DNA of 7,004 bases. It comes from a virus (Duplodnaviria > Heunggongvirae > Uroviricota > Caudoviricetes). Below are positions 3,001 through 7,004 of the stretch, in pieces (the first letter of the stretch is position 1; each line of letters starts with the position of its first letter). The position numbers were made by a program. The stretch covers positions 1 to 7,004 of the IMG/VR virus record IMGVR_UViG_2529293078_000008. One strand, given 5' to 3'.

Positions 3001-6000
3001 TCTTAGTCTTGGATATTCTGACCTTACGCTGATTAATGGTCGGGTAACCTTGTTCGTTTAGCCATTTACAGATAGCAAACATCGACATACCAGACAGACG
3101 CTTGTCATAGATGATATTCACCAGTGACGCTTTATCTTCATCAACGATGTAGTGTGAACCGTCTTCTGATAGCTCTAACCATCCGGGGGCTTGCTTACCC
3201 ATAGGCTTCTTAAGTTCTCTTGCAAGCTGTGTTTTATGGTTCCAGACCTGAGCTATACGCTTTTGTTTAACAAGAGATTCCTGATGTGCTCGCTCAGCTA
3301 TGATGATGTGCTTAATCAACTTCACAGGGTCTGTTAAGGCTGACTTGTCGTAGAGTTCACCATCTCCCAGAGTCAGTATAGAGACTCCCTTCCTCAGTAT
3401 CTGCCTAACGTCATCTATAGCTGTGTCGATATCTGCCCTACTGAAGCGGTCAAAGTTCTCTACAACAATCAAGGAACCTTCTGGAATAGCCCCAGACATA
3501 ACATTTTCAAACATACGTCTGAAGTCAGAACCTTGAGCCTTATGTTGCTGGTGAAAACCAGATTTACCCTTATCAACGTATCTGTGAGCAGGAAGAAGGT
3601 AATAATCGTTTTTGTGCTTAGAGTAGAAAGCATCAATGAGGTTTGTTTGCCGTCTTAAGGAGTCTCCTGAGTCTTGCTCTTTAGTACTCCACCTGATGTA
3701 TGTCACTAGCAGCTTCATATCTTCGGACTATGCTTATCTAAGTGGTTCATTGAACAGGAGAACAATGATATGAGTGTTAAGGCAAGAATACTAGTGCTTT
3801 ATTATTCCATGTACGGACATATTGAAACCATGAAGCATTAAAAACACAGAATTACCGAAGATCGTCCAAGAGCATATATTTTTCAATCTGTTACACCTCA
3901 TTTTGACCATGAAGAAATCAATTTTACACCGTTCTTTATACGTTCTTTTTTGCCCCAAATATGCCCCAAACAACCACATTTTGCCCCAATAGTGCCCCAA
4001 ACATTTAAGGGGATTTAACTTGATATTTCAGATAATTAACGCAAGTTTGCGATGCGAATTTGCGTTAATTTTCTGGATGAGGCATTTACCGTTACCCGTT
4101 CATCAATATTCCGCTGATTGACAAATCCTCCAGAGCTATCGCATACTGACCGCACTGAACAAATAAGCGGTCTCCGCACCCGATAGCTTTGCGGCTTTTT
4201 TATGCCTGCAATTTGGCATAGTTACATCCGTACAAAGGTCGGGTGGAGAGGCGTAATACAACACCCGCAAGGGGAATATGCCCAGAGCTTCTTATTTGGC
4301 TCAGTTGACACCCGACCGCCAGCTACTAACTGGCGGTTATAAACTAAACAAATAAGGAGGTCATCATGACCAGTCAACTCATCCCCGTATTCAACGGCAC
4401 TATCGCCAACGAAACCACTCTTCTCGTTAATGCCCGTGATTTACATACTTTTCTTGGAGTAGGTAAACGCTTTGCATCGTGGATTACAGAACGTATTGAA
4501 GAGTACGGATTCGTTGAAAATCAGGACTATATAGCTATTTCCCAGAAACGGGAAATAGGTTATGGGCGAGGGAAAAAAGACTACCACCTTACCCTCGATA
4601 CAGCCAAAGAAACGGCGATGGTAGAGCGTAACGAAAAAGGCCGACAGATACGCAGATACTTCATCGAGTGCGAAAAGAAACTTCGCAACATGCAGTCGGC
4701 ACAAGCAGAACCACAGCAACAATTCACAGACGAGGAAATCATCCTCCTCTGCTACATGCAACTCTGGATGGAAAAAGCCCAGGACCTCAGCAAACACCTG
4801 TATCCGATCATGAAAGAGCTGAACTCCTCATACACGAACAAGCTGTATGACATTGCGTTTGAGACCATCTACATGGTGACGAAGAACAGAGATGTGCTAC
4901 TGAGAGAGGCGGCACGGCTTGACCAGTCGAGTTTCGTAGTTCAGCGGGCCAGACCAATGCTGAAAAGCCTGCGGGCAAGGCAATTCGAATTCTAAAACCA
5001 AAGGAGCTTCGGCTCCTTTTTTCATGCCTGAAGGAAAGGAAAATGGCAGATATCATCGACAACGCCGCTGAAATCGAAGAATTGCAGCGCAATCTCTCCC
5101 TGCAAAAATACAAATCCGATAGTAATGCCCCATCTGCTACTCATTGTTGCGAGTGTGGCGATCCGATAGATGAGCGGCGACGCCTGGCTGTTCGTGGATG
5201 CAGAGCTTGCGCCAGTTGCCAGCAGGATATTGAACTTATCAACAAACAGAGAGGTGTGAAGTGAACATCAACACCACGATAACGATCGATACAGCCCTGA
5301 ACACCGGCCTAGCGCTCCTTGGTTATTTCTACATCATGTTCTGCAGCGGACGATGGCTGTCACTGTTGTTCATGAAAAAATGGAATAAACGCCGTAAGCA
5401 GGAGCAACGCCAAAAGGCAATAGATGCATTTTTCGAAGCCTTCGGTATTGACGGCATGGAACCAGGGGATCCAGCTCGCGCAATTAGCAGAGGGGGCGTA
5501 GTAATCCTTGTATACCGGAGTGAAGAGAAAAATGAGCAAGATTGACTATCAGGCACTGCGTGAAAAGGCAGAGAAAGCAACTAAAGGAAGCTACATCGTA
5601 GGGCATACATCTGTTAACCAGCACGGCAATTTAACAGGAGTTTTTGTTTGCCAAAAATGGAAAGGAGAACCCGGTGGCGTGATTGCAGAATGTCATGTTA
5701 ACTGCCTGGTTGAAACAGATGCTCAGGCTTATGCAACGCTGAATTCATAGCAGAGGCTAACCCGGCTACCGTGCTGGAACTGCTGGATGAACGGGAAAGA
5801 AACCAGCAATACATCAAACGCCGCGACCAGGAGAACGAGGAGATTGCGCTTACGGTTGGGAAGCTGAGAGTTGAGCTGGGAGCAGCAGAGAACAACCTTA
5901 TTGATAGTGAATGCCATGTTGCTGAACTGGAAGAAGCGCTACGCGATAAGCAGGCGTTACTTGAAGCATCAGAGAAGCGCATAGCAGAACTGGAAGCCGA

Positions 6001-7004
6001 ACTCGTAAGCCAAACTTACAAGTTGCCACACACGCAGTTTGAACAGATTGCTAACCTCTACGAAATGCAATTTGATGACGGTCGCACTTGTGCCTTTCAC
6101 ACTGATGCGCAAAAGGCTGAGCAATGGCTTCAGGCGTGCGACGGAAACAGGGTTCAGGAATACGTTAAGCTGGAACGGTTGCAGAATGCGCTGTCTGGCA
6201 ACTCTCCGGTAACTCCGGATGGTTGGATAAGTTGTAGTGAGCGAATGCCGGATACCAAAACAGCCGTTCTTGTTGCCGTGGAGTTTGACAGGAAAGGTGA
6301 CTGGCGAATGAAGTGGGCGACTTACATCCCGGGGCATCCTGACGCTAATGATGGGTGGATAATTCCTGGTGCGTCGTGGAAACCGTCACACTGGATGCCG
6401 CTACCAGAACCGCCGCAGGAGGTGAACTGATGGAAAATGAAGGCGATAATATCATCACACTGGTGCAGCCAAAGCGCGATGAAGAGAAGCTGCTGAACAT
6501 TACAGTAACTGGCAGAAAAAACTACACACAACAGAGCTGTAAGCATCGGGCCATTGAGGTTCATGAACAGGATCACGTTATCCTGTGCTTGCAGTGCGGA
6601 TGTGTTGTGGACCCTTTTCAGTATGTTCTGCGGTGTGCGAACGATGGTGAGGCTGTGGTGAGAGAGATTAGACAGCTTCATAACAGACACGATCAGCTCC
6701 GAGAATCTGTTGCCAGCCTCGAGCGTGAAGAAAAGAACACCAAAGCACGGTTGCGGGCAGCAAGAACTGCAATACTGTATGCGGAAAATGACCTTAAAAA
6801 TATTGAGCAGAAGGTGAATCAATGACCTGGCCTGAAGCATTCGCAAATGTAGGAACAGTAATGGCGGTGGTGCTGGTTGTGTATTCGATTTGTCGCTGGA
6901 GATAAAAACGGTTTGCGGGAAAAGGAGAGTTAAGTAGAATTGCTGCGGGTGCTTGAGGCTATCTGCCTCGGGCATGAACACCAACGGCAGATAGAGAAAA
7001 GCCC

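What the first reader, a model, noticed from the sequence alone, without database searches (positions are those of the whole stretch)
5532..6430. Ea22-like gene split across two reading frames
The Ea22-type N-terminal signature (MSKIDYQALREKAEKATKG) is in one frame and stops at TAG 5748-5750, while the remainder (IAEANPATVLELLDERERNQQYIKRRDQENEEIALTVGKLRVEL..., coiled coil, DUF551-like end) continues in another frame that is open from 5714. A single missing base near 5745-5750 would fuse them (..ATLNS-IAEANPATVLELL..). This could be a sequencing error, a recent inactivating mutation, or, less likely, a programmed frameshift.
Basis: partly seen in the sequence, partly recalled or inferred. Interest (0 to 1): 0.45.

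Follow-up and report, generated by a model that had tools for sequence, protein, structure and literature searches.

The report
Frameshifted second Ea22 gene, Stx prophage
A Shiga-toxin prophage's spare copy of the lysogeny-promoting Ea22 gene has been broken by loss of a single A; the mutation is real and common in E. coli O157:H7, databases already flag it, and it is ordinary.

Summary
Window 5532-5750 encodes the first part of a Pfam Ead_Ea22 domain (profile positions 1-56). The -1 frame from 5747 to 6430 encodes the rest (positions 61-139) plus a DUF551 C-terminal domain.

The cause is one missing A in an AAA run. The window has GCAACGCT (AA at 5735-5736), where intact homologues have GCAAACGCT. 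Over the whole 900-nt gene it is the only indel against the intact 299-aa genes of phage 933W and E. coli O157:H7 strain 611. Strain 611 has no substitutions against the window.

It is not a sequencing error. The same allele is 100% identical in VT2-Sakai/Sp5, the Morioka Stx1 and Stx2-II phages, the PA phages and dozens of complete genomes. NCBI's PGAP already annotates exactly these coordinates as "ead/Ea22-like family protein, frameshifted".

It is not programmed recoding. There is no slippery heptamer, no homopolymer longer than 3 and no unusual downstream RNA structure, and 98 of 100 diverse homologues read through in one frame.

In VT2-Sakai this is the second Ea22 paralogue (variant V2), at the prophage end next to wrbA, and an intact V1 copy sits in the exo-xis region.

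Verdict: a recent, segregating inactivating frameshift in a probably redundant accessory gene. It is already known and of low interest.

The parts
5532..5750 (+). 5' fragment of the frameshifted ea22-like (variant V2) gene. It gives 72 codons plus TAG. Residues 1-68 are authentic and the last four (TLNS, 5736-5747) are out-of-frame.
   Evidence: ORF. (Pfam Ead_Ea22 profile 1-56, 40.8 bits). (alignment with intact homologues).
5735..5736 (+). Site of the 1-nt deletion. The window has AA where intact alleles have AAA (GCA AAC GCT becomes GCA ACG CT).
   Evidence: 5 intact homologues all have AAA. (the only gap column in the 900-nt alignment against 933W and strain 611).
5735..6430 (+). Remainder of the gene in the -1 frame (NAEFIAEANPATVLELLDERERNQQYIK... 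to ...PEPPQEVN, stop TGA 6428-6430). It holds the conserved Ea22 coiled-coil core and the C-terminal domain.
   Evidence: Ead_Ea22 profile 61-139, 65 bits. (the repaired 299-aa protein is 97% identical, in one piece, to the intact genes of 933W, phi24B and Stx2 phage I).
5771..6430 (+). Longest conventional ORF inside the 3' piece (GTG start, 219 aa). It is annotated as a separate 'DUF551 domain-containing protein' or 'EaA protein' in older phage records. AGAGG lies 14 nt upstream, so the ribosome-binding geometry is poor.
   Evidence: (NP_050575.1). for the sequence upstream.
6221..6418 (+). DUF551 C-terminal domain, the feature that defines Ea22 variant V2.
   Evidence: PF04448, E = 2.5e-21, residues 159-224 of the translation that starts at 5747. 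PMC10834534.
4366..5545 (+). Upstream genes of the same tightly overlapping gene string: AntA/P22AR antirepressor (4366-4995), TraR/DksA zinc-finger protein (5043-5264) and DUF4752 protein (5261-5545, overlapping the ea22 start by 14 nt).
6430..6825 (+). Downstream 131-aa hypothetical gene. Its ATG overlaps the ea22-V2 stop (TGATG), so it is probably translationally coupled and may be affected by the premature stop.
   Evidence: WP_000426668.1. The coupling is an inference from the overlap.

Best explanation
Window 5532-6430 is the second, accessory Ea22-family gene (variant V2: N-terminal domain, coiled coil, DUF551 C-terminal domain) of an Sp5/VT2-Sakai-type Shiga-toxin prophage. In phage record coordinates it lies at the right end of the genome, next to the wrbA attachment site and downstream of ant, a traR/dksA-like gene and a DUF4752 gene. 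Loss of one A from an AAA run (now AA at 5735-5736) moves the ribosome out of frame after residue 68. Translation ends four codons later, at TAG 5748. The gene is therefore a genuine frameshift allele, that is, a pseudogene or at best two fragments.

The mutation is recent. The intact allele is otherwise identical over 952 nt. Both alleles segregate in E. coli O157:H7-type prophage populations.

Shown here: the indel, its position, its reality across assemblies, the existence of the intact allele, and the lack of recoding signals. Inferred: loss of function of the full-length protein, and that the loss is tolerated because VT2-Sakai-type phages also carry an intact Ea22 V1 copy in the exo-xis region. 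Intact Ea22 proteins are tetrameric and pro-lysogenic, and the lambda C-terminal domain alone is inactive (PMC7093339, PMC10834534).
For: -: one Pfam Ead_Ea22 domain is split 1-56 / 61-139 across the two frames, and DUF551 follows.
- five intact homologues all have GCAAACGCT where the window has GCAACGCT.
- this is the only gap in 900 aligned nt against 933W (13 substitutions) and against strain 611 (0 substitutions).
- the intact protein was seen on 219 contigs, the 72-aa fragment on 447 and the 219-aa fragment on 441.
- the frameshift allele is 100% identical in VT2-Sakai, Stx1/Stx2-II Morioka, the PA phages, P22/P32 and F422 (32 phage records match in two pieces) and in at least 30 listed complete genomes. 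An intact V2 is present in 933W, EDL933-Stx, phi24B, Stx2 phage I, F403 and WGPS9.
- PGAP annotates these exact coordinates as 'ead/Ea22-like family protein; frameshifted'.
- VT2-Sakai has an intact 257-aa Ea22 copy at 4102-4875, between exo and xis.
- 98 of 100 IMG/VR homologues with the intact motif continue for at least 60 aa in the same frame (median 167.5 aa; 66 distinct proteins).
Against: No expression data were examined, so it is not shown that the fragments are inactive. The 72-aa N-terminal piece roughly matches a domain the literature predicts to fold on its own. The 219-aa piece contains the whole coiled coil plus DUF551. The frameshift allele appears more common than the intact one in public assemblies, so it is at least not strongly deleterious. 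The window does not include the exo-xis region, so the presence of an intact V1 copy in this particular prophage is assumed from VT2-Sakai.
Confidence: 0.9

Rival explanations
1. Gene fission. The two pieces are both expressed and work as separate proteins. The 72-aa N-terminal domain is made from ATG 5532. The 219-aa coiled-coil-DUF551 protein is made by termination at TAG 5748 followed by re-initiation at GTG 5771.
For: GTG 5771 lies 21 nt after the stop, with AGAGG at 5752-5756. The break falls at the boundary between the N-terminal segment and the conserved coiled-coil core. The allele is frequent, with 447 versus 219 contigs. Older annotations call the pieces as two genes.
Against: The spacing from the Shine-Dalgarno-like motif to the start is 14 nt, which is poor. 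No diverged homologue shows this two-gene arrangement, so there is no evolutionary conservation of the split. All split copies are essentially identical, so there is no evidence of purifying selection after the split. For lambda Ea22, parts of the protein alone did not reproduce the function (PMC10834534).
Confidence: 0.07
2. Programmed recoding. A -1 ribosomal frameshift or transcriptional slippage restores a full-length Ea22 V2 at some frequency.
For: Both frames overlap in an open window at 5714-5750, which is the geometry a -1 frameshift needs.
Against: There is no X XXY YYZ heptamer in the overlap, and the longest homopolymer in 5700-5760 is 3 nt. The downstream 123 nt fold no better than shuffles (z = -0.20). 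Rfam finds nothing there. Diverged homologues are single-frame, and the identical-background intact allele differs by exactly this base, which is the signature of a mutation rather than a conserved signal.
Confidence: 0.02
3. A sequencing or assembly error in the window's source, or conversely in the assemblies that carry the intact allele.
For: Single-base homopolymer indels are a common error class.
Against: The run is only 2-3 nt long. The AA allele is identical in Sanger-era phage genomes (VT2-Sakai, the Morioka phages) and in many later complete genomes from different laboratories. The AAA allele occurs on 219 contigs. Both alleles are therefore real.
Confidence: 0.01

Closest known systems
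Ea22 variant V2 of Stx phages (933W NP_049538.1; phi24B; prototype in Donaldson/Wegrzyn laboratory papers PMC10834534 and PMC7093339)
   Same: The repaired reading is 299 aa, colinear and 97% identical. It has the same N-terminal segment, Ead_Ea22 coiled-coil core and DUF551 C-terminal domain. It has the same neighbours (ant, traR/dksA-like gene, downstream hypothetical gene, hok/gef) as the 933W copy.
   Different: One A is missing, so the ORF is interrupted. A DUF4752 gene lies between the traR-like gene and ea22 here but not in 933W. The first five codons differ (MSKID versus VSEIN).
Lambda Ea22 (182 aa, exo-xis region, pro-lysogenic, tetrameric; CTD NMR structure in PMC10834534)
   Same: It shares the Pfam Ead_Ea22 signature and the conserved LELLDERERNQQYIKRRDQENE core.
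   Different: Lambda lacks the ~63-aa N-terminal segment and has an unrelated C-terminal domain. Lambda's gene lies between exo and xis, whereas this copy lies at the opposite prophage end next to wrbA.
PGAP pseudogene 'ead/Ea22-like family protein, frameshifted' (e.g. C7M85_RS30915 in CP027766)
   Same: The DNA and coordinates are identical.
   Different: Nothing differs. This is the same feature, already flagged in RefSeq.

Membership tests
Ead/Ea22-like protein family (Pfam PF13935) | Match to the family profile above the gathering score | tested here: met
   The 5' piece scores 40.8 bits and the 3' piece 65 bits (cut-off 27). They cover complementary profile positions 1-56 and 61-139.
Ead/Ea22-like protein family (Pfam PF13935) | A single uninterrupted ORF encodes the domain | tested here: not met
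   A 1-nt deletion at 5735-5736 leads to a premature TAG at 5748. The sequence is a disrupted member (pseudogene allele), not a functional member as it stands.
Ea22 variant V2 (PMC10834534) | DUF551 C-terminal domain after the shared N-terminal segment and coiled-coil core | tested here: met
   (DUF551, E = 2.5e-21). (97% identity over 299 aa to the V2 genes of 933W and phi24B).
Ea22 variant V2 (PMC10834534) | Tetrameric coiled-coil protein with pro-lysogenic activity | not testable with these tools
   This is biochemical and genetic work from the literature on lambda, phi24B and P27 proteins. Nothing has been measured for this allele.
exo-xis region genes of lambdoid phages | Location between exo and xis | tested here: not met
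   In VT2-Sakai this copy is at 58342-59252, near the right end of the 60,942-bp record. The copy in the exo-xis region is a different, intact gene at 4102-4875. In the window the gene lies about 1.7 kb from the wrbA junction.
Programmed -1 ribosomal frameshift sites | Slippery heptamer X XXY YYZ in the frame-overlap window | tested here: not met
   One search found none in 5700-5750.
Programmed -1 ribosomal frameshift sites | Stimulatory downstream RNA structure | tested here: not met
   Region 5738-5860 folds at -30.6 kcal/mol with z = -0.20 against shuffles.
Programmed -1 ribosomal frameshift sites | The two-frame arrangement is conserved among diverged homologues | tested here: not met
   (98 of 100 homologous ORFs are single-frame through the junction)..
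Transcriptional slippage / phase-variable homopolymer tracts | A long homopolymer run (about 7 nt or more) at the shift site | tested here: not met
   The longest run in 5700-5760 is 3 nt, and the site itself is AA/AAA.

The most novel reading that the evidence does not exclude
The single-base deletion may be an observed gene fission rather than a gene death. The 72-aa N-terminal domain and a re-initiated 219-aa coiled-coil-DUF551 protein (GTG 5771) would both be made and retain or alter Ea22-V2 function. That could explain why the split allele looks more common than the intact one in O157:H7 Stx prophages, and it could modulate the lysogeny/induction balance, and hence Stx release, between otherwise identical phages.
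Probability: 0.07. Interest if true: 0.35.

Novelty: already known. Interest (0 to 1): 0.08.

Why it matters
It matters little beyond annotation hygiene. The feature is a known, database-flagged frameshift in an accessory paralogue of a gene family whose function (favouring lysogeny) is only partly understood.

Two modest practical points follow:
- Comparative papers list VT2-Sakai, Stx2-II, PA5, PA27, PA45 and F422 as carrying Ea22 V2, but in these phages that copy is interrupted. In 933W, phi24B, Stx2 phage I and WGPS9 it is intact.
- The AA and AAA alleles exist on otherwise identical DNA. They offer a natural isogenic pair for testing what Ea22 V2 (DUF551) does to Stx-prophage induction.

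Tried and rejected
- **Sequencing error:** rejected by identical alleles in many independent assemblies and by contig counts for both alleles.
- **Recombination joint between two modules in different frames:** rejected because the sequence is colinear with intact genes on both sides and only one base is missing.
- **Programmed frameshift or slippage:** no heptamer, no homopolymer, no structure, no conservation.
- **NCBIfam scan of the pieces:** no hit, so uninformative.
- **Naturally separate genes in homologues:** looked for among 124 IMG/VR loci. Only the four loci carrying this same deletion end at ...ATLNS.
- **Promoter and terminator scan:** nothing above shuffle expectation inside the gene.
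- **Structure prediction and large protein searches:** not run, because the sequence evidence already settles the question.

Full report
**Observation**

Reading the window confirms an ORF from ATG 5532 (MSKIDYQALREKAEKATKG...) that stops at TAG 5748-5750. A second frame is closed by TGA 5711-5713 and is then open from 5714 to TGA 6428-6430. It reads ...NAEFIAEANPATVLELLDERERNQQYIKRRDQENEE... and ends ...PEPPQEVN.

Pfam places profile positions 1-56 of the 139-position Ead_Ea22 model on the first piece (40.8 bits, cut-off 27). It places positions 61-139 on the second piece (65 bits). DUF551 follows at the C-terminus (E = 2.5e-21).

**Where the break is**

Five intact homologues were aligned: Min27, Stx2a_F451, phage 86, WGPS8 and O157 typing phage 10. 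All have TATGCAAACGCTGAATT where the window has TATGCAACGCTGAATT.

Over the full gene, the window (899 nt) aligns to the intact 900-nt genes of phage 933W and E. coli O157:H7 strain 611 with a single gap column, at this A-run. There are 13 substitutions against 933W and none against strain 611.

The lesion is thus the loss of one A from AAA, leaving AA at 5735-5736. The authentic protein reads ...ETDAQAYA-NAEFIAEANPATVLELL.... The residues TLNS before the stop are frameshift products.

**Is it real?**

The 951-nt region is 100% identical in many records:
- VT2-Sakai (Sp5)
- the Stx1 and Stx2-II phages of strain Morioka V526
- the PA phage series
- vB_EcoS_P22 and P32
- Stx2a_F422
- at least 30 listed complete E. 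coli genomes from different laboratories

A tblastn search with the repaired protein finds 32 phage records that match in two pieces with this allele.

PGAP annotates exactly window 5532-6430 as "ead/Ea22-like family protein, frameshifted". Older phage records call the two pieces as separate genes: an "ead/Ea22-like family protein" of 76 aa and a "DUF551 domain-containing protein" or "EaA protein" of 219 aa.

The repaired (AAA) sequence has perfect 952/952 matches in O157:H7 strain 611 and strain 122. There it is an intact 299-aa gene, WP_063075122.1.

In the 15-billion-protein collection, the intact protein was seen on 219 contigs, the 72-aa fragment on 447 and the 219-aa fragment on 441. Both alleles are therefore genuine and segregate in the population. 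Neither is a sequencing artefact.

**What the gene is**

The literature describes Ea22 as a three-part protein: a short N-terminal region, a long coiled coil and a variable C-terminal domain. It is tetrameric and favours lysogeny over lysis in lambda and Stx phages (PMC7093339, PMC10834534).

Stx phages carry three variants, and V2 is defined by a DUF551 C-terminal domain. The repaired window protein is 97% identical over all 299 residues, in one piece, to the V2 genes of 933W, EDL933-Stx, phi24B, Stx2 phage I, F403 and WGPS9. It is therefore a disrupted V2 allele.

In VT2-Sakai this copy lies near the right end of the 60,942-bp phage record (58342-59252). It sits downstream of ant, a traR/dksA-like gene and a DUF4752 gene, and upstream of a hypothetical gene and hok/gef. 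A separate, intact 257-aa Ea22 gene (V1 in the paper's Table 1) occupies the canonical exo-xis position at 4102-4875.

The frameshifted gene is thus a second paralogue, which plausibly explains why its loss is tolerated. That last step is an inference.

**Rivals**

*Programmed recoding.* The frame-overlap window contains no X XXY YYZ heptamer, and the longest homopolymer nearby is 3 nt. The 123 nt downstream fold no better than shuffled controls (z = -0.20). Rfam finds nothing there.

Among 100 IMG/VR loci that carry the intact junction motif with the ORF fully inside the locus (66 distinct proteins), 98 continue for at least 60 aa in the same frame, with a median of 167.5 aa. The only ORFs ending at ...ATLNS are the four loci with this same deletion.

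*Recombination joint.* This is excluded by perfect colinearity on both sides of the missing base.

*Gene fission.* Re-initiation at GTG 5771 cannot be excluded without expression data. However, it has a poor ribosome-binding geometry (AGAGG 14 nt upstream) and no evolutionary support.

**Independent decay**

Phage Min27 is intact at the AAA site but carries a CC insertion further down the same gene (TTACCCAAG versus TTACAAG). This is either an independent frameshift or a sequencing error in that record. If real, it fits relaxed selection on this paralogue.

**Context of the window**

Only 3794-7004 matches Stx phages, at 100% identity. Positions 1-3832 match, at about 94% identity, a different prophage that in other E. 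coli abuts the 5' end of wrbA. That prophage has a tape-measure gene, a baseplate gene and a 547-aa serine recombinase.

The window therefore spans two unrelated prophages in tandem at wrbA. No complete RefSeq E. coli genome covers 80% or more of it.

**Verdict**

This is a correctly spotted, genuine single-base frameshift in an accessory Ea22-V2 gene of an Sp5-type Stx prophage. It is already flagged by PGAP, recent, polymorphic, not programmed and biologically ordinary. Interest is low and novelty is "already known".

Noticed in passing
window 1-3832 versus 3794-7004: The window spans two different prophages in tandem at wrbA. The left part carries a tape-measure 3' end (152-1126), a baseplate-like gene (1263-2054) and a 547-aa serine recombinase (2075-3718, minus strand). 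It is about 94% identical to an element that in other E. coli sits directly 5' of wrbA. The right part is 100% identical to the Sp5/VT2-Sakai right end. The shared segment 3794-3832 is the start of wrbA (ATG ~3771, MSVKARILVLYYSMYGHIETM). No complete RefSeq E. coli genome covers 80% or more of the window.
   Followed up: partly
window 4237-4325 (+): There is an Rfam sRNA-Xcc1 (RF02221) match of 69 bits (gathering score 53) covering the full model. It lies immediately upstream of the antirepressor gene (ATG 4366). A promoter-like TTGACA-18-CATACT sits at 4118-4147.
   Followed up: no
L004 (phage Min27) ~1688-1690, equivalent to window 6018/6019: Min27's copy of the same gene is intact at the AAA site but has a 2-nt CC insertion that shifts the frame after ...LVSQTY. 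This is either an independent disruption or a sequencing error in that record.
   Followed up: partly
literature: PMC10834534 Table 1: VT2-Sakai, Stx2-II, PA5, PA27, PA45 and F422 are listed as carrying Ea22 V2, and the word 'frameshift' does not occur in the paper's main text. tblastn shows the V2 copy matching in two pieces in all of these. In VT2-Sakai it lies near the right end of the record, away from the exo-xis region.
   Followed up: partly
window 5261-5264, 5532-5545, 6428-6432: The genes traR-like, DUF4752, ea22-V2 and orf131 overlap start-to-stop (GTGA, a 14-nt overlap, and TGATG). This suggests translational coupling. The premature stop at 5748 leaves about 680 nt untranslated and could be polar on ORF 6430-6825.
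   Followed up: no
window 5698-5982 (-): A 94-aa antisense ORF inside the ea22 coiled-coil region is annotated in AP005153 as 'similar to phage phi-C3208 enterohemolysin 2'. The ea22-like ORF is annotated as 'enterohemolysin-associated protein'. These are historical annotations that overlap the real gene.
   Followed up: no
window 5177-5546 versus 933W (L137): The DUF4752 gene ('arrangement f' of Sato et al.'s repeat scheme in AP005153) lies between the traR-like gene and ea22-V2 in Sakai-type phages. It is absent in 933W, where ea22 directly follows the traR-like gene. This module swap changes the first five codons of ea22 (MSKID versus VSEIN).
   Followed up: partly
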